Position numbers and translations under genes: made by a program
Notes under the pieces: generated by a model
What the model was told of the DNA's origin: nothing
Database searches by the model: none
What the model saw: the letters and a program-made list of their open reading frames with translations, nothing else
Source of the DNA: a virus
Lineage: Duplodnaviria > Caudoviricetes
Length of the DNA: 64,000 nucleotides
Virus record (IMG/VR): IMGVR_UViG_3300008262_000001
Direction: 5' to 3' (one strand)
Part shown: one piece after another, positions 10,845 to 59,934 of the stretch
How the letters are laid out: each line of letters starts with the position of its first letter
Position numbering within the stretch: position 1 is the stretch's first letter

Positions 10845-11138
10845 TTAATAGTGTGGATTGTCCTTTATTTTATACCAATTTTTGTTTCCTGTATTTTTCT
10901 CTGTTTTTTCAAAAACTCCAGTTTCTATAAGTTCCTTTACTAATTCTCCATGTTTGAGTACTTCCCAATCTTGTGGTAAAAACGAGTTGAATGTCTGATC
11001 TGAAAAATCTCCATCAGGTCTACCATCTTTAATCAGATAGAAGTTTAGCTCATAAATAATATCTTCTTTGGTCGGATATTCAGGAAGGTCTTTCCATATT
11101 CCGAGAAGATACTTAAGCTTAATTTTCTCCTTCTGCAT
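10845..11138 (-). CDS. Hypothetical protein
   Basis: 97-aa ORF in the replication operon. Confidence 0.65.
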   Translation of the reverse strand: MQKEKIKLKYLLGIWKDLPEYPTKEDIIYELNFYLIKDGRPDGDFSDQTFNSFLPQDWEVLKHGELVKELIETGVFEKTEKNTGNKNWYKIKDNPHY

Positions 11139-12294
11139 TTTCCTCAGAATTTGTTTCAGTTTCTTGTCCCTCTAAAAGCTCTTCAAATTCTTTCTCGTCG
11201 AAAAGATCAGGCAATTTAAAATGCGGACCTATAACCTTTTCATCAATCATTTTAAGAACCTCGTCGGTGAAAACTTCTGATGTAAAAATCTGTGTTGAAG
11301 CAACAGTCTTTCCTAAGTGTCTTACTGCCCATCTTGGAGAGGATTCATTTCCTTCGAATTTCATTTCTCCCGTTTTTTTATCAACCTCCAATTTACCTCT
11401 TTGTATGCCGCACGTTTCCCAAGAAACAAAGTCCTGGAGACCAACATATGGATTCATACCATTCATAAATGAAATGTGGAATTTCACAGCATATGGTCTA
11501 GTGAATCTTGCTTTTTTAGGTGTCGAAGTTACTATTATACCAGTTCTGGTATCTCCTTCTTTTAGCTGAGCTTTAGAAAGCATTATAACGTTGCTCATAG
11601 AGAAGATAGGACCATCACCACCTGCAGCTTCTTTAGTAGGCATAAAACCTCCAATGTTTCCAGTGGTCGTGTGGTTTGTACAAATCAATGGGATTTTCAC
11701 TCCGGTTAGATCTAAAGTAATAACTCTGAATAAGGATCTTAATTCCTTAGATCTTATACCCATATCCATCGCACTTTTACCCTTAAGTGCATCGCCAGTT
11801 TCTTTGTCTGTTGATAGCATACCTAAGGAATCCAGCACGATCATAATTTTTGGATCTGCTCCTTCTTTTCTATAACCCTTAACCTTATCAATAAGATTTG
11901 CAACGAATACTTTGAATTCTGCAATTGTTTTAATTGGTTGATAACGAACAGTATTAGCATCAATACCAAACTTTTTAGCACTGCTTTTGTCGATTGCTCC
12001 TTCTGTATCACAGTAAATAACGTTGTAGCCCTTTTTCTGTGCCTCTCTTACAATGTTCATACAAAGGAAGGATTTACCTGTCTGTGGATCGCCTGCTATT
12101 CCCATTGATCGATTGTTGGCTATTCCTCCGAATAAACTCCCTGAAAGCTGTGCATTAAGAAGATAGTTACCAGTTGGTATCCATTCCCCAACCTCTGAGA
12201 AATCGTTGGTCTCTAGAATTGAACCAGTTTCAAATCCTTCTATTTTAGAAAGCTGCTTATCAAGTTCAGCGAACGAAAATTCTTTTTTTGCCAT
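11119..12294 (-). CDS. uvsX: RecA-like recombinase UvsX
   Basis: GDPQTGKS, YCDTEGA, IVLDSLGML, GGDG motifs. Confidence 0.92.
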   Translation of the reverse strand: MAKKEFSFAELDKQLSKIEGFETGSILETNDFSEVGEWIPTGNYLLNAQLSGSLFGGIANNRSMGIAGDPQTGKSFLCMNIVREAQKKGYNVIYCDTEGAIDKSSAKKFGIDANTVRYQPIKTIAEFKVFVANLIDKVKGYRKEGADPKIMIVLDSLGMLSTDKETGDALKGKSAMDMGIRSKELRSLFRVITLDLTGVKIPLICTNHTTTGNIGGFMPTKEAAGGDGPIFSMSNVIMLSKAQLKEGDTRTGIIVTSTPKKARFTRPYAVKFHISFMNGMNPYVGLQDFVSWETCGIQRGKLEVDKKTGEMKFEGNESSPRWAVRHLGKTVASTQIFTSEVFTDEVLKMIDEKVIGPHFKLPDLFDEKEFEELLEGQETETNSEENAEGEN

Positions 12295-27055: not shown

Positions 27056-27202
27056 TTATCTTCCCTGGCCAACGTAAACTTTTTTGTAATTCTTAGATTT
27101 TTTGTTTTTACTAGATTTACACTTAGAATGTATCCCTTTATTACATTTCTTTGCTTTCTTTCTGAATGTACTAGTGGATTCACTTTTCTTAGGTTTAGCC
27201 AT
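27056..27202 (-). CDS. Small highly basic protein (48 aa, not in ORF track)
   Basis: MAKPKKSESTSTFRKKAKKCNKGIHSKCKSSKNKKSKNYKKVYVGQGR. Confidence 0.7.
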   Translation of the reverse strand: MAKPKKSESTSTFRKKAKKCNKGIHSKCKSSKNKKSKNYKKVYVGQGR

Positions 27203-27296: not shown

Positions 27297-28919
27297 TCAG
27301 GATTCTATAGAATCCCAAATGTCAATAATTGCTTTTGCAAAGACAGGTTCTTTTCCTGTCCAACCTGATAAAATTGCACCTCTATAAAGATTTTCTGGAA
27401 GAACTGAATTATCGTATCCAGCAACCTGAACAGAGAAGACATTTACTTTAGGATTCACCTTCTTTCTGTAAACTTCAACCATCTTTAAAACATCTACGTG
27501 TGTGGATGAACTAGTTGTTCCATAAGGAGATCTGCCAACAGTGTTTGAAAATCCGAAAAGACCACCGTGTCCCGCTTGCATATCAGAGTAAATGAAGACC
27601 GTATCGTAGTGAATCTTTTCTGTGATGGCTTGATCCCAAAATACCCAAATACCATTCTCAGTAGATCCCCCTTGCATTTTTCCTCTTTGTGATGTCTCTT
27701 CCAGTTGTGTGAGTAGACCATTTCTTTTAGAGATCTCTTCTAATGAAAGTTTATCACCAAAAACACCAACAAGACCTTGGTCTGCTTGCATTGCAGTAAT
27801 TAAAGAAGAAAGGTTTGCAATTTCTGCTACGGTAACTGATCCATATTCACTCTGACAAGATCCCCAAGCAGAACCTGAATTGTCAGACAGACAAGCAACT
27901 TTACCCTTAAGCTTAGGCATATTTGCTACTGCTATATCTAAGCATTCTTCTAAAGCATCAAGTATTAGTCTTTTGTTGTTTACTTCTTCTGAAGACTTAA
28001 CTGCTTTATAAGCTGACCAATATCTAAATGGGAATTGCTTTCCTTTCAAAACTCCAGATTTTAATCCATCTAGAATTTTAACGGTGGTATCAAGATCTGA
28101 TATCTCTTTGAAAATTCCTCTTAGGTTTTTCAGAAGAGCCATATGAGGAACTGTAATTTGCTTCAAAATCTCTTGCCAGTTTTTACCTGCAGACTTAAGA
28201 CTTTCCCAGGTCATTTCAGTTTCTAAAATATTGAGCTTACCAGTTGTCATAAGCTCACTGATGTCATCATTAGAAGCATGAGATATTCTTACTAGGTCAA
28301 TGAGTTTTTTGCCCTTGTACTTGTTGAGCTGATATCTGCTATACTCTTCTAATCTTTCCGCCCATGTACGTTTAATTAAGGATGGAAGCTTTGATTTTGT
28401 TCCATTCTTAAACATGTAATAGTCAAACTGGTTAGTTAAGTCATCAGGTCTTTCTGCAATTTTCTTCCCGATGTTTTTCATATAACCAGGATTCATCTCA
28501 TTAAAAGATTTCCTGCTCTCGTGAGAAAGTGCCCTAACAAATATAACCGAAGGGTTTAATCTCATAAGATATTCAGTCCTGAGTTCTAGGGCTAAGTCCA
28601 ATGTAGCTTGGAAATCAAAAGAAAGCGAATTGTCGATTGCCTGCTCAAAAACATCCACTGCAGATCTTTTATCTTTGAATAGATCCGGGAAAATTGAATG
28701 GTCTATAATCGTAGAGATATTTTTGATTGTAGCATTAGAATTGATCCCATCCCGATAATATTGAGGTTCTCCAAAAATCGAAGAAGCTGCTACAATTTTC
28801 AATGTTTGTAAAGGAGAAATCTTGTAAGATGTTCCTGACATGAAATTCTGAACTTTGTCTCCAGAGTTTTTTCTAGACAAAGCTGTTTCTTTAATACCAA
28901 ATTCGCTTAATTTAGACAT
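27297..28919 (-). CDS. rsr: Ro60-like TROVE + VWA RNA-binding protein
   Basis: 540 aa; LALELRTEYLMRLNP, VPHMALLKNLR, QFPFRYWSAY; VWA MIDAS ACLSDNSGS; FIYSDMQ. Confidence 0.9.
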   Translation of the reverse strand: MSKLSEFGIKETALSRKNSGDKVQNFMSGTSYKISPLQTLKIVAASSIFGEPQYYRDGINSNATIKNISTIIDHSIFPDLFKDKRSAVDVFEQAIDNSLSFDFQATLDLALELRTEYLMRLNPSVIFVRALSHESRKSFNEMNPGYMKNIGKKIAERPDDLTNQFDYYMFKNGTKSKLPSLIKRTWAERLEEYSRYQLNKYKGKKLIDLVRISHASNDDISELMTTGKLNILETEMTWESLKSAGKNWQEILKQITVPHMALLKNLRGIFKEISDLDTTVKILDGLKSGVLKGKQFPFRYWSAYKAVKSSEEVNNKRLILDALEECLDIAVANMPKLKGKVACLSDNSGSAWGSCQSEYGSVTVAEIANLSSLITAMQADQGLVGVFGDKLSLEEISKRNGLLTQLEETSQRGKMQGGSTENGIWVFWDQAITEKIHYDTVFIYSDMQAGHGGLFGFSNTVGRSPYGTTSSSTHVDVLKMVEVYRKKVNPKVNVFSVQVAGYDNSVLPENLYRGAILSGWTGKEPVFAKAIIDIWDSIES

Positions 28920-28945
28920 GAGAGTTGTGGTTTAAATTACACAAT

Positions 28946-28986
28946 AAAAAAGGATCTAGAATGTGAAAAATCTCACACTTAGATCC
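28946..28986 (-). terminator. Strong terminator-like hairpin between the Y-RNA-like array and the TROVE start
   Basis: GGATCTA-AGTGTGA-GATTTT-TCACATT-C-TAGATCC-TTTTTT. Confidence 0.7.
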
Positions 28987-29015
28987 CAGAATTTTTATGA
29001 CTATTGCTAGTCTTT

Positions 29016-29091
29016 AAAAAAAATCCGAGAATATTAGTTTTGGGTTTTTTTCGATAATAAGTGAAGTATCCCAAAACACCGCTTCAGATTT
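29016..29091 (-). ncRNA. Y-RNA-like ncRNA B (minimal form, 3' U tail)
   Basis: AAATCTGA/TCGGATTT stem, AGCGGT internal loop, GTTTTGGG/CCCAAAAC stem, ATACTTCAC motif shared with RNA A; adjacent to the Ro60 gene. Confidence 0.6.
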
Positions 29092-29104: not shown

Positions 29105-29320
29105 TTTCTTGAGAAATCTTTAAAAGGGATTGCTAATTACGTTAGCTAGTCGTACCCTAATTTCTAGGCCGGTATAATGACCCGATCTACTGTGGTTTTC
29201 CTTTGCAGGCGTTTTTTCTGTAGCACTACTAAAACCTTTGTGCCTTGTACTAATCTTGGGGATTAATACTCAGCTTTTTTTGCGTAATTGTGGAGTATCC
29301 TTCTAAACCGCTTCAAGAAA
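29105..29320 (-). ncRNA. Y-RNA-like ncRNA A (about 216 nt) with multi-branched, pseudoknotted inner domain
   Basis: TTTCTTGA/TCAAGAAA, AGCGGT loop, TTAGAAGGAT/ATCCCTTTTAA, ATACTCCAC, AATTACG/CGTAATT; inner hairpins and GGTTTT/AAAACC pairing. Confidence 0.6.
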
Positions 29321-29351
29321 AAAAGAATAAGAAATGAAAGAACGTTTTATT

Positions 29352-29380
29352 TTGATACCGCTAATGTAATACAAAGTTTC
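29352..29380 (-). promoter_or_regulatory. GAAAC-N18-TATCAA promoter candidate for the Y-RNA-like array
   Basis: GAAAC 29380-29376, TATCAA 29357-29352; boxA-like GTTCTTTCA follows at 29343-29335. Confidence 0.45.
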
Positions 29381-29748: not shown

Positions 29749-30024
29749 TTATTCACTTATTTTTTCGTCAATTTCACTTAAAGACGGACCTGATAAATCG
29801 ATTTCACTACTTGGATTTACGTTTAATTTTTTTGTGAAATCGCTAGATATTTCTAATGATTCATTTTCCGATCTAATCTCAGAAACTGCACCTCCTTCTG
29901 AAGATTTATTTTGGCTTTGAATCATCTCCATGAGTTTTTTCATCTTAGTTTTTGACAAGCCTTTTGGTTTAGGTGTATGTTTTACCTTTTTACCATTTTT
30001 CTTTCTTACTCTACTTTTAGGCAT
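29749..30024 (-). CDS. Hypothetical protein with very basic N-terminus
   Basis: MPKSRVRKKNGKKVK. Confidence 0.65.
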   Translation of the reverse strand: MPKSRVRKKNGKKVKHTPKPKGLSKTKMKKLMEMIQSQNKSSEGGAVSEIRSENESLEISSDFTKKLNVNPSSEIDLSGPSLSEIDEKISE

Positions 30025-33242: not shown

Positions 33243-35921
33243 TTAGTTAATAAAAGTATAAGAAGCACCACCTGCACCGAAATCTGGCTCAGAATAAACC
33301 CCAACAAGATTAGAGAAAAACACTCCTCCTCTACTATCATTAACTGAACTTGTATCCCAATCATCAACATTTACCCATCCATTAGTTCCATCACATTGTA
33401 CAAAAAATTCTAATACAGTATCTAACGGAACTGCAGAAACAGTATAGCTTAATTGTTGCCAAACACCACCTGTTGAAGATGCTGTTGCAACAACAGTATC
33501 TTCTAAATTACTTGACATACTATTGAATCGATAAACCAATTCTGGGTTAATCCCGTTATATTGGACTCCATCTGCCAATGTAGATAATCTTACCCAAACA
33601 GATACTGTGCTTGACTCTCCTGCTACTACAGGAATTCTTACAGTGTTACTTGCCAAAATTCCATATCTAAAAGCGGGGGTCAATCTTGTTGATGGAGCTG
33701 AAGTTCTAAATATAGTTGTGTCTGTTGAAATATTTCCAAGGTTTGTGTAAATTGTGTTACTTCCTGTTACACCATTCTCTTTAAAAACTTGTATTCCTTG
33801 TATGTATGGTGTTCCCTTGAAGAAATTGTTTCTTGAATTTACAGTTCCAAAAAATTGTGGATTTGAGACCATAAGATTTCCACCTCTAGTATAGTCTGAA
33901 CGGAAAATTGAAGTGCTAAAGGCATTTGTTCCACCTGTTGGAGAAATTGCAAAAGAACAGTCAACGAAGTGCATATAATCTGTGTATGATGGAACCTGAC
34001 TTGCTTGTGGATAAACAGCACTTGCAACAGTAACGTTCCTGTCTCTCCAAAGGTAACAATCTTTAAAAATAACTCTATTAATGAGATTGGTGTAAGTTAT
34101 TAAAGAATTACTCGATCCAAAAATGTAAGCAGAATCAAAAGTTATTTGTGAGGAAGAATAAAGCATGTCATAATTGACAAAAGTTATTGCTGTTCCTCCA
34201 GCATTATAGAAGACCCTCCATCCTGGAATAGTTAAGACACTTTTATCCGAAAATTCACTCGCAACTGTTGCTGAAACTCCAAATTGTGCACCAAAAGAAC
34301 CATTCGAATATATTCTCCAGTTATCAAAAATAGTATTAGTACCAATAGGATAGCATCTTGCTGTGCCAGACGAATATGTATTTAAAATCACTCCAGTACT
34401 GGAGGAGGAGGTAAATATATTTCCATCACTAGATCCAATCCAGTATTGAACAAAACAGCTTCCGTTTCTTACAAAGAAATTGTTCCTCCAAGTTAAACTA
34501 TCAACACCGGCTACAGCAAGAAGAGTTATTCCTGCTCCGCTGTAATTGTAGATAACATTATCGGAAAAAATAAGGGAGGATCCAGTACCTGCCACTGATG
34601 TACCAAGATAAAATCCAAGACCTGAAGCGAGGGGGGTTGATTGGTAAAACGAGCAATATCTAATTTCAACACTCATATCTTGAGCATTTCCTGTATTGGT
34701 CCCAACACTAACTCCTGCTGTTGTCGCTGCTGTTCCTGCACATTGCAAAAACTGCGTGTATTTACAGTTAACAACAGTATTTTGTCCGGTGATTTGTACA
34801 TTCGTTGAAAGTGTAGTAGTAGCCCCAACAGTAATAATTACATTTCTATTTAGGTTTGCTATATCTGCTTCAGTCCATGAACTTGAACTTCCTGAATGTG
34901 CATTGGTCAATGCTGCAATTGAAGCAGTTGTTGAACTAACTCCAGAAGCAAGGTTTTTTATCTCAGCTTGAGCAGCAGTTGTAGATGTTGAAGCTAAAAC
35001 GATAGTCTCTCCGGATTTCCAGTTAGTTGGAGTTGCACTTAGTGTTATTGATGTTGCACCAGCAGAAGCATCTGCAGCTAATTTAATTCCTGTGCTTTTT
35101 TCTTCCCCATAAGTTATAAAAGTTCCTCCACTTATAAAAAGACTGAATTGATTGGCTGAAGTAACATTTAGCTCTAATCTTGCAAATCCACCATTAGGAA
35201 TCGGATTCGTTGAATCTCCCATTTTTAAAGTGCCCCCACTAGTGACGAACATGTTACCACTCAACCTAAGTATGTAAGTTGCTGCTGTTGTGGGATATTG
35301 AAGAGTGCCTTTTGTTGCTATGTAGATCTGGCCATACACAGTTGCACTGGATGTTTGGTTCATCGTCACCGCATATGAGTTACTAGTTCCCGCCCCAGTG
35401 TAATTTCCAGCAATAATTAATACGTCAGTAGCTGCTGGAGCTGCATTAGTAGTTGTAACTAATCCCCTGCTCCAGTTTGTTGTCCCTGACGTGTATACTG
35501 TAATTTGGTTTGCAACAGAGGTAGAGAGTCTTACTGCATAGTTAGTTGCTGCTAATAATGTTATATCAGAAGCAAATTTGAAATAAGCCCACCCTAAACC
35601 TCTCGCTCCCGTTCTAGTACTCAGAACAGCGGGAAGATCCGAAACGTTAACAGTTACAGTTGCACCAGCAACTGCTGCACCAGCAGTCGTGTTAAACAAA
35701 GCAACAGTAAAAGTTCCGGAAGGACTTGTAGTTGTGTTTAATATTTGTATAAGAATTCCAGAAGTTGTAATTGCACCAGGAGTAAAAGCTGTTGAGTTAG
35801 TTGGGGTAGTTGTGACTGTTCCTGGGGCAACAACTGAATCCAAAAAAGAAGCTGCATTCACAACGTCCCAAGTTGAAGCATCTAGAAAATTACCGCTTTG
35901 TACAGAGACCAGAGTTGCCAT
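33243..35921 (-). CDS. Large virion beta-helix / G8-like protein (fibre or receptor-binding)
   Basis: Thr/Ser/Gly/Ala-rich beta-strand repeats; N-term SVQSGNFLDASTW; pectin-lyase-like middle region. Confidence 0.6.
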   Translation of the reverse strand: MATLVSVQSGNFLDASTWDVVNAASFLDSVVAPGTVTTTPTNSTAFTPGAITTSGILIQILNTTTSPSGTFTVALFNTTAGAAVAGATVTVNVSDLPAVLSTRTGARGLGWAYFKFASDITLLAATNYAVRLSTSVANQITVYTSGTTNWSRGLVTTTNAAPAATDVLIIAGNYTGAGTSNSYAVTMNQTSSATVYGQIYIATKGTLQYPTTAATYILRLSGNMFVTSGGTLKMGDSTNPIPNGGFARLELNVTSANQFSLFISGGTFITYGEEKSTGIKLAADASAGATSITLSATPTNWKSGETIVLASTSTTAAQAEIKNLASGVSSTTASIAALTNAHSGSSSSWTEADIANLNRNVIITVGATTTLSTNVQITGQNTVVNCKYTQFLQCAGTAATTAGVSVGTNTGNAQDMSVEIRYCSFYQSTPLASGLGFYLGTSVAGTGSSLIFSDNVIYNYSGAGITLLAVAGVDSLTWRNNFFVRNGSCFVQYWIGSSDGNIFTSSSSTGVILNTYSSGTARCYPIGTNTIFDNWRIYSNGSFGAQFGVSATVASEFSDKSVLTIPGWRVFYNAGGTAITFVNYDMLYSSSQITFDSAYIFGSSNSLITYTNLINRVIFKDCYLWRDRNVTVASAVYPQASQVPSYTDYMHFVDCSFAISPTGGTNAFSTSIFRSDYTRGGNLMVSNPQFFGTVNSRNNFFKGTPYIQGIQVFKENGVTGSNTIYTNLGNISTDTTIFRTSAPSTRLTPAFRYGILASNTVRIPVVAGESSTVSVWVRLSTLADGVQYNGINPELVYRFNSMSSNLEDTVVATASSTGGVWQQLSYTVSAVPLDTVLEFFVQCDGTNGWVNVDDWDTSSVNDSRGGVFFSNLVGVYSEPDFGAGGASYTFIN

Positions 35922-36129
35922 TATTCAATTACTATTTGTGTTAAAGTTTGATCTGGATATAAATTCAAAGCTATCTCTCTTACTCTTTCTTCCATTTCTA
36001 TTGTAGTGTATGGTTGGCTAAAAATTACACCAGATAAACTAAATTGGAGTTGATTGTTTTCGTCGTCAGAAAAATTAAGATCAAAGAAATCATCATTACC
36101 AACACACCTTTTATTTATTAAATATGCTA

Positions 36130-58910: not shown

Positions 58911-59934
58911 TCAATAAAAATCTGTTACTTATCACTTTGAATGATATCTTTCTATCTAGACTTCTTATTACTACACCCTCTCTATCAAAATTTTTGTTCA
59001 AGCAAGATTTGTTATCGGAATATAAAAGAAGCTCATCGATTGTACCAGGAAGCTCGAAATTTGTTTCTAAAATGGGTACAGGGGTCAAACCTAATGATGA
59101 CATGAGAGAAGAGAAACTGGAAAAATCTAAATACCTCCCTTCATCGATATTATACACATTAAAAAAGAAAACAGTTTGACCTATAATTTTATAAGGATTA
59201 CTTTGCACGCCTTCCCCTACTAATTCTCCTTGCAAAGAAGCGTTGAATCCTAAGGATTTTAGTTTATTCTCCAAATCTAATGTTCTTGCTACTTTCCAAA
59301 AAGTATTGTCAGGAGTTTCTAAAAGTTCGAGATTTCTCGAACAAACACCAAATTCTCCGTCTTTGAAATAATATGTGGCAGAACTTCCGTCCAGTTTTTC
59401 TGTAACATAGTATTGACCTGAATTCTCTTTGAAAACAGAATATGATTCTGTCAAATTTTGTATACGCTCCTCGTCGGTTTTAGGAATAAAAGACGGAAAT
59501 AATCCCTTTGCAATTCCTGCTAGAGAAGCTGGAACAGGAGGTTCATATTTGATGATTCCTAAGCATTCTGAAACGTCCTGTCCTTCTTCCCAATTTGTAG
59601 TATCAAATTGATTTCTAATTGAGATCTGCTGAGCACTTTTTAGAGCAATAATTAATCCCTGGGAAATCTGTCCCCGGAGTTTAATTGTTTTCAGTCTAAA
59701 TCCCTCAGATCCGTCGCTCATTTTTTTGTAAGAGCTTTTTCTAAGAAATTCAAATTCTGGTTCTATAGGAAGAAAAGAATCAATTTCACAATAAACAACT
59801 TTGTCACCTTCCTGGTGATTTACATTTTTAGCAACAACAACACTCCATCCATTAACTATGGCCAATTCAATAGCGTCTGCCCCTTCAATTGGCAATATTT
59901 GTTTGATTGTTTGTACAGTAGCAAGTTTTCTCAT
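58900..59934 (-). CDS. ATP-dependent RNA ligase, DRB0094/Rnl5 family
   Basis: N-terminal OB-like domain (RKLATVQ...LRGQISQG); TEKLDGSS, QGELVG, EGVV, FKVIS motifs. Confidence 0.88.
   Translation of the reverse strand: MRKLATVQTIKQILPIEGADAIELAIVNGWSVVVAKNVNHQEGDKVVYCEIDSFLPIEPEFEFLRKSSYKKMSDGSEGFRLKTIKLRGQISQGLIIALKSAQQISIRNQFDTTNWEEGQDVSECLGIIKYEPPVPASLAGIAKGLFPSFIPKTDEERIQNLTESYSVFKENSGQYYVTEKLDGSSATYYFKDGEFGVCSRNLELLETPDNTFWKVARTLDLENKLKSLGFNASLQGELVGEGVQSNPYKIIGQTVFFFNVYNIDEGRYLDFSSFSSLMSSLGLTPVPILETNFELPGTIDELLLYSDNKSCLNKNFDREGVVIRSLDRKISFKVISNRFLLNEK

What the first reader, a model, noticed from the sequence alone, without database searches (positions are those of the whole stretch)
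29141..29280. Unfamiliar pseudoknotted multi-branch domain inside Y-like RNA A
Seen: where RNA B has only a short loop, RNA A carries about 135 nt closed by AGCT(G)AG/CTAGCT. It contains hairpin TATTAATC-CCCAA-GATTAGTA, hairpin GGCAC/GTGCT whose loop GGTTTT (29236-29231) can pair with AAAACC (29199-29194), a CCT-GCAA-AGG GNRA hairpin between them, and two more small hairpins (GGT/ACC, CCTA/TAGG). Inference: an effector module swapped into the Ro-binding scaffold, such as a decoy, ligand-binding domain or ribozyme, in place of the tRNA mimic of YrlA.
Basis: partly seen in the sequence, partly recalled or inferred. Interest (0 to 1): 0.68.

Follow-up and report, generated by a model that had tools for sequence, protein, structure and literature searches.

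The report
Triple-pseudoknot module in phage Y RNA
A freshwater jumbo phage encodes a small RNA partner of the ring protein Ro60 that carries, where other such RNAs carry a tRNA look-alike, a conserved chain of three RNA pseudoknots that I found in no RNA database, probably a docking or decoy surface for a host RNA-handling protein.

Summary
RNA A (about 29320-29105, minus strand) lies upstream of a phage Ro60 gene, and 52 other distinct copies were found beside Ro60 in related phages. The conserved fold is a variable hairpin followed by three H-type pseudoknots. The second carries a near-invariant UAGAAAU loop, and the third, found by an unbiased scan, pairs a CNUAA loop with an upstream triplet (two middle pairs: 59/59 and 43/43 Watson-Crick). 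The same terminal stem carries YrlA-like tRNA mimics in other phages, including Bacillus phage G, so the exchangeable-module idea holds. No Rfam family, rRNA, tmRNA, RNase P or ribozyme core matches. Best reading: a Ro60-anchored, nuclease-resistant module that binds a host RNA-processing protein, PNPase-like by analogy (untested). This scan noted related handle RNAs and tandem pseudoknots beside Ro60 in other phages.

The parts
27297..28919 (-). Ro60 (TROVE + vWA) gene, 540 aa
   Evidence: Pfam TROVE above cut-off; the top 13 fold matches are all Ro60/Rsr, best Thermus phage phiLo 9KOP, E 3e-13; MIDAS-type D346-x-S348-x-S350 invariant
28945..28987 (-). Terminator-like hairpin plus U-tract between the RNAs and the Ro60 start
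   Evidence: MFE -18.1 kcal/mol, z -4.08; a similar hairpin plus U-tract is seen in homologs; not picked up by the simple terminator scan
29021..29091 (-). RNA B: short Y-like RNA with the same scaffold and a small loop
   Evidence: Shared motif found twice in the window, 0 in shuffles; fold z -2.76
29105..29320 (-). RNA A: long Y-like RNA (ends estimated)
   Evidence: 53 distinct class I copies, window included; terminal helix 100% paired with compensatory changes
29292..29319 (-). Scaffold 5' strand (GAAGCGG ... TACTCC), pairing with 29130-29106; presumed Ro60-binding part
   Evidence: among loci found by DNA motif alone, 18 of 19 with a closed scaffold hold Ro60, against 7 of 90 without
29106..29130 (-). 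Scaffold 3' strand ending in TTCTC
29242..29274 (-).
   Evidence: z -6.25; compensatory changes in close relatives; median z -2.3 for the equivalent segment in 44 homologs
29186..29235 (-). PK1: stem 29235-29231/29215-29211; its loop 29224-29220 pairs with 29190-29186 (G.A mismatch at one end in this copy); GNRA hairpin 29209-29200 in the connecting loop
   Evidence: PK1 helix 89% paired; 38 of 53 copies form all 5 pairs, against 8% of shuffled controls; stem 35/40 with two compensatory changes in close relatives
29154..29182 (-). PK2: S1 29182-29179/29170-29167; S2 29175-29171 (A29173 bulged)/29157-29154; loop 3 contains UAGAAAU (29166-29160)
   Evidence: Pair 29181:29168 is the top covarying pair and is Watson-Crick in 43/43 loci, four pair types, at least 4 changes on the Ro60 tree; S1 85%, S2 83% paired
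29132..29153 (-). PK3: triplet 29153-29151 pairs with 29141-29139 in the CGUAA loop of hairpin 29146-29142/29136-29132; the hairpin occupies the D-arm position
   Evidence: Found by an unbiased scan; 97.6% and 91.8% paired; middle pair Watson-Crick in 59/59 (C-G 34, U-A 13, A-U 12), at least 4 changes on the tree; shared with class II RNAs
29335..29368 (-). Likely promoter -7-like element (29368-29361) and boxA-like stretch (29344-29335) upstream of RNA A
   Evidence: TAnnTT(T/A)G in 32 and a boxA-like motif in 32 of about 51 homolog upstream regions; function inferred

Best explanation
RNA A is a phage Y-type RNA with two modules. Its ends form a bulged stem that binds the phage's own Ro60 (inferred from position, association and kinship with YrlA-like RNAs). 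Its middle folds into a hairpin plus three compact H-type pseudoknots (supported by covariation). PK2 and PK3 share a strand and probably stack into a rigid rod that continues the Ro60-bound stem (inferred). This module replaces, or was remodelled from, the tRNA-like domain of YrlA. It most likely does the same job: it resists nucleases and presents a conserved surface (UAGAA loop, CNUAA loop) that docks a host RNA-handling protein, most plausibly PNPase or a related exoribonuclease. The Ro60 particle would then tie up or redirect host RNA decay during infection. The partner and the effect are inferred, not shown.
For: Structure. Link to Ro60: all 52 homologous copies lie 154-1466 nt upstream of Ro60 on the same strand; 18/19 against 7/90 in motif-derived loci. 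Modularity: the same scaffold carries short loops, tRNA-like domains or other pseudoknot domains; YrlA model hit in the phage G unit. Precedent: Y RNA tethers Rsr to PNPase, and the authors favour a protein- or RNA-binding role, or nuclease protection, for the tRNA-like module (PMC4201824); phage phiLo Ro60 with Yrl1/Yrl2 binds host PNPase and attenuates it in vitro (PMC12135203). No RtcB in five related phage records, and no S1-domain gene in this record, so no obvious phage-encoded partner.
Against: No expression, binding or probing data. The canonical GNCGAAN0-1G motif is not met (7 of 195 units). No single pair reaches E<0.05 in my tree-based scan (best 0.09). Deleting the T arm of Yrn1 did not change complex assembly (PMC4201824), so the effector-PNPase link is uncertain even in the model system. 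Nothing here picks PNPase over other partners.
Confidence: 0.5

Rival explanations
1. Anti-defence decoy: the pseudoknots and the A-rich loop mimic a type III antitoxin (ToxI-like) or another substrate of a host defence RNase and neutralise it.
For: Compact H-type pseudoknots; GAAAU, the cut site of E. coli ToxN (PMC8860590), is in the PK2 loop of 47 of 53 copies; the layout RNA, terminator, gene resembles toxIN loci.
Against: No ToxN (PF13958) over cut-off in 401 genomes of the presumed host phylum (a sample, with no positive control ringing). The closest relatives change the site to GAUAU (L403/L404). The class II form reads GAAAC. No ToxI match in Rfam. The downstream gene is Ro60.
Confidence: 0.13
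2. Non-canonical tRNA-elbow or ribosome-binding mimic: the T-loop-like UAGAA and the D-arm-positioned hairpin engage ribosomes, translation factors or tRNA-sensing proteins.
For: In class II RNAs the motif is a 4-7 bp hairpin with U(A/U)GAA plus 1-2 extra bases, the size of a T-loop. The last hairpin is preceded by a U8-like U in 30/31 and followed by a purine in 30/31 distinct variants. Related phages carry bS21 or S1 genes.
Against: No hit for the YrlA, tRNA or tmRNA models at RNA A. The D-like loop is tied up in PK3, so it cannot make the usual D/T contact. No acceptor stem or CCA end.
Confidence: 0.17
3. Ligand-binding aptamer or conformational switch: 29152-29151 has two possible partners (PK3, or the conserved UCG at 29185-29183), and a small molecule or protein could toggle them.
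For: The alternative helix is 92% paired and is kept in all close relatives; many invariant unpaired bases.
Against: The alternative helix has no compensatory change, and class II RNAs lack it. No riboswitch family matches. No expression platform.
Confidence: 0.08
4. Cis-acting leader that controls read-through into the Ro60 gene.
For: A terminator-like hairpin lies between the RNAs and the Ro60 start.
Against: In about ten loci the RNA lies 520-1470 nt upstream, with another gene in between where checked. RNA B separates RNA A from the terminator, and similar units also lie downstream of Ro60 in other phages.
Confidence: 0.04
5. Self-cleaving or processing ribozyme.
For: Multi-pseudoknot folds are typical of small ribozymes (general knowledge).
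Against: No Rfam ribozyme at E<=10 or in two homolog loci at E<=1. Core motifs of hammerhead, pistol, HDV, glmS and group I S occur in 0-1 of 53 copies, and a loose twister pattern in 6 of 53. A cut inside the domain would not release the RNA ends.
Confidence: 0.03

Closest known systems
YrlA/YrlB bacterial and phage Y RNAs (Rfam RF02553; Chen et al. 2014, PMC4201824)
   Same: Encoded within 4 kb of Ro60 on the same strand; tandem long and short RNAs; terminal stem plus internal module; sister units with this scaffold carry T-arm, closed acceptor stem and D-arm as YrlA does.
   Different: No tRNA-like domain by model; three pseudoknots instead; 5' motif is YGAAGCGG with a bulged A, not GNCGAAN0-1G.
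Thermus phage phiLo Ro60 with Yrl1/Yrl2 (PMC12135203; PDB 9KOP, 9L5Y)
   Same: Phage Ro60 with two upstream Y-like RNAs; best structural match of the protein.
   Different: Yrl1 and Yrl2 are described as simple one- or two-hairpin RNAs; no pseudoknot domain is mentioned in the passages read; protein about 20% identical.
Type III antitoxin RNAs (ToxI; PMC8860590)
   Same: Compact H-type pseudoknots, a GAAAU stretch, and an RNA-terminator-gene layout.
   Different: Not sequence repeats; the neighbour is Ro60, not ToxN; the motif lies inside a pseudoknot loop and varies.
Plant-virus tandem pseudoknot domains and tRNA-like structures (TMV upstream pseudoknot domain, TYMV acceptor pseudoknot; from memory)
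   Same: Consecutive small H-type pseudoknots; PK3 has similar dimensions (3 bp + 5 bp).
   Different: No sequence likeness and no free CCA end; an analogy only, not tested.

Membership tests
Y RNA (YrlA type) | Within 4 kb of a Ro60 gene, same strand | tested here: met
   About 190 nt upstream in the window; 154-1466 nt in 52 homologs
Y RNA (YrlA type) | Neighbouring protein is a Ro60 orthologue | tested here: met
Y RNA (YrlA type) | 5' and 3' ends pair into a long bulged stem | tested here: met
   Terminal helices 100% and 85% paired with compensatory changes
Y RNA (YrlA type) | GNCGAAN0-1G motif near the 5' end | tested here: not met
   RNA A reads CUUGAAG; 7 of 195 scaffold units match exactly; YGAAG is the common form
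Y RNA (YrlA type) | tRNA-like domain (T arm, acceptor stem, D arm) | tested here: not met
   No RF02553 or tRNA match at RNA A; only positional echoes
Y RNA (general) | Bound by Ro60 and expressed as a discrete RNA | not testable with these tools
   Needs immunoprecipitation, EMSA, Northern blot
Type III antitoxin (ToxI) | Tandem repeats upstream of a ToxN-family gene | tested here: not met
   Downstream gene is Ro60; the pseudoknots differ in sequence; no Rfam hit
Type III antitoxin mimic | Cognate ToxN present in hosts | tested here: inconclusive
   0 of 401 genomes over cut-off; the host phylum is inferred, and TenpN and CptN were not searched
Known small ribozymes and group I introns | Catalytic core consensus | tested here: not met
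Fragment of rRNA, tmRNA or RNase P RNA | Significant profile match to host RNAs | tested here: not met
   Best E about 0.3 on rRNA operon loci, none on tmRNA or RNase P; no match in 151 genomes

The most novel reading that the evidence does not exclude
Phage Ro60 particles are a plug-in platform for RNA counter-defence: one Ro60-binding stem displays different effector folds, and this triple-pseudoknot module is a purpose-built RNA inhibitor or switch aimed at a specific host nuclease or defence sensor, a kind of anti-defence RNA not yet described.
Probability: 0.2. Interest if true: 0.85.

Novelty: new variant of a known kind. Interest (0 to 1): 0.62.

Why it matters
The role of the second module of bacterial Y RNAs is an open question (PMC4201824). 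Described bacterial modules are tRNA-like or simple hairpins. Here one phage clade offers natural swaps on a single scaffold (short loop, tRNA mimic, triple pseudoknot), so the effector concept and its partners can be tested directly by domain exchange. It also adds a covariation-supported RNA fold of three consecutive pseudoknots that is absent from Rfam 15 and from the papers searched.

Tried and rejected
Group I intron core: P-, Q- and R-like stretches are visible, but the covarying register differs and S is absent (0/53). 23S L11-binding region or H9-H11 mimic, from remembered likeness: no significant match, and the longest shared words are at chance length. RNase P CR-II: a 13/14-nt look-alike of 29227-29214 exists, but the family consensus differs and this strand pairs in PK1. 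tmRNA: no match. Free-standing copies of the domain: 6 pattern hits in genomes and the non-Ro60 hits among the 97 viral pattern matches examined lacked the flanking structure; no match in 151 bacterial genomes and none in cultured phages. Helix 29185-29183/29152-29150: compatible, but without compensatory change; left open. My errors: one search used a structure string shifted by two columns and is void (redone); the PK1 tallies are mis-anchored (use); some labels on the tree are wrong (L001, L003 and L407 are class I). The Chen 2014 supplement and two reviews were not held, so I could not confirm that the phage G unit is the one they listed. No complex prediction was run: the open question is RNA-protein binding.

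Full report
Setting. The window is part of a 175-kb virus record, 63% complete. The finding lies on the minus strand between a thioredoxin gene and a 540-aa gene at 28919-27297. That protein is Ro60: Pfam TROVE above cut-off, profile hits to Thermus phage phiLo Ro60, and a predicted model whose top 13 fold matches are all Ro60/Rsr. A motif, GAAGCGG followed by GATACT(C/T)CAC, occurs exactly twice in the window and never in shuffles; these are RNA A (about 29320-29105) and RNA B (about 29091-29021). A terminator-like hairpin follows. The host is probably a Bacteroidota species. This is inferred from TAnnTT(T/A)G elements upstream of most homologs and from bS21 genes in two relatives (PMC9723584).

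Homologs. Searches with Ro60 gave about 190 loci. They contain 53 distinct RNAs of the window's type, class I, window included. All 52 homologs lie 154-1466 nt upstream of Ro60 on its strand. Identity to the window ranges from about 37% to 84% in the set aligned first. Loci fetched by DNA motif alone confirm the link: 18 of 19 with a closed scaffold hold Ro60, against 7 of 90 without.

In the 8 nearest relatives the proposed pseudoknot keeps 24/48 cells, GGCAC/GTGCT 27/40 with no compensatory change, GGT/ACC 12/24, CCTA/TAGG 9/32 and the closing helix 32/48. Two elements survive: the first hairpin, which closes locally with GCT/GGC, and the GNRA hairpin. Both vary in length and sequence across the family.

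The supported fold. (1) PK1. The strand 29235-29231 pairs with 29215-29211, not with 29199-29194 (35/40, two compensatory changes). The loop of this stem (29224-29220) pairs with 29190-29186: 89% paired, and all five pairs form in 38 of 53 copies against 8% of controls, with many different sequence versions. (2) PK2. 29182-29179 pairs with 29170-29167, and the enclosed 29175-29171 pairs with 29157-29154 around a bulged A. Pair 29181:29168 is the strongest covarying pair in an all-against-all scan with a tree-based null; it is Watson-Crick in 43/43 loci in four forms, with at least four changes on the Ro60 tree. The connecting loop holds UAGAAAU, nearly invariant. 29153-29151 pairs with the first three bases of the CGUAA loop of hairpin 29146-29132. 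Its middle pair is C-G, U-A or A-U in 59/59 loci, with at least four changes. PK2 and PK3 together pair in 89.2% of cells, with 115 double-sided changes against 31 in shuffles and at most 50% for slid controls. Caveats: no single pair passes E<0.05 in my scan (best 0.09 among 17,205 pairs), although six of the top seven are pairs of this model; PK3 is only 2-3 bp; and a competing helix (29185-29183 with 29152-29150) stays compatible but shows no compensatory change.

A modular family. The scaffold carries several cargos: short loops (RNA B type); class I; class II, where U(A/U)GAAA is the loop of a 4-7 bp hairpin and PK3 is kept; smaller pseudoknot domains; and rearranged tRNA mimics. In Bacillus phage G the best YrlA-model hit (E 5.8e-7, below the gathering score) lies inside such a unit, upstream of its Ro60 gene; phage G is among the phages reported to have Y-like RNAs (PMC12135203). 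One contig has a class I RNA and a tRNA-mimic unit (L201). On the Ro60 tree, class I is spread across the freshwater clade, with other cargos nested in it and tRNA mimics mostly in the outgroup. The PK3 hairpin sits where YrlA has its D-arm, with a U two bases before it and a purine after it in 30 of 31 variants. The module may therefore be a remodelled YrlA domain and not a foreign insert (inference).

What it is not. No Rfam family matches. Profiles of the domain find nothing significant in E. coli or Bacteroidota rRNA, tmRNA or RNase P RNA, nor in 151 bacterial genomes. Ribozyme cores are absent. A ToxI-mimic reading is attractive because E. coli ToxN cuts GAAAU (PMC8860590), but no ToxN was found over cut-off in 401 genomes of the presumed host phylum, and the nearest relatives alter the site. 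A cis-regulatory role is unlikely because other genes separate the RNA from Ro60 in several loci.

Mechanism. Shown computationally: the gene layout, the link to Ro60, the secondary structure and the exchange of cargos. Inferred: transcription as a stable-RNA precursor (boxA-like element, terminator), Ro60 binding to the terminal stem, and stacking of PK2 and PK3 into a rod. By analogy, Y RNA tethers Rsr to PNPase (PMC4201824) and phiLo Ro60-Yrl attenuates host PNPase in vitro (PMC12135203). The module most likely docks a host RNA-handling protein and resists its nuclease action. I give this 0.5; translation-factor or ribosome binding 0.17, defence-nuclease decoy 0.13, ligand switch 0.08, cis leader 0.04, ribozyme 0.03.

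Verdict. [quoted passage not shown] It is a new variant of Ro60-partner RNA with a triple-pseudoknot module that I found in neither Rfam nor the papers searched. Unchecked notes from this scan describe handle RNAs, and in one case tandem pseudoknots, beside Ro60 in other phages; I did not compare those sequences with this domain.

Noticed in passing
window 27056-27202 (-): A 48-aa very basic ORF ending in GQGR directly downstream of Ro60, conserved in 31 of 78 loci compared; possible RNA-binding partner, or only synteny within one clade.
   Followed up: partly
window 29749-30024 (-): A 91-aa ORF with a basic N-terminus and no Pfam hit, upstream of thioredoxin in 32 of 78 loci.
   Followed up: partly
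L137:299-435, L201:9730-9880, L048:5091-5245, L035:4972-5135: Scaffold units whose cargo is a circularly permuted tRNA starting with an anticodon-like loop (Asn GUU or Lys UUU), possible decoys for anticodon nucleases.
   Followed up: partly
L033:4609-4995, L034:4972-5077, L036:1801-2042: A second rearrangement: D, anticodon and T arms in normal order, with the scaffold replacing the acceptor stem.
   Followed up: no
L386:2750-2957 (-): A scaffold unit with a tandem duplication of a small hairpin with a CUUAA loop and an upstream AAG that could pair with it.
   Followed up: no
L035:881-1524; L048:793-1150: A ROOL RNA and a tmRNA lie within about 2 kb of phage Ro60 genes.
   Followed up: no
G000 66861-67346 (window about 58930-59415) and 151295-151840: Two RNA_ligase (PF09414) hits in this genome; no RtcB in five related records.
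   Followed up: partly
G158 11083-11787; G157 35249-35404; G159 35971-36114: Related phages encode a three-S1-domain protein or ribosomal protein bS21.
   Followed up: no
window 29344-29335 (-): A boxA-like sequence before RNA A, present in 32 of about 51 homologs.
   Followed up: partly
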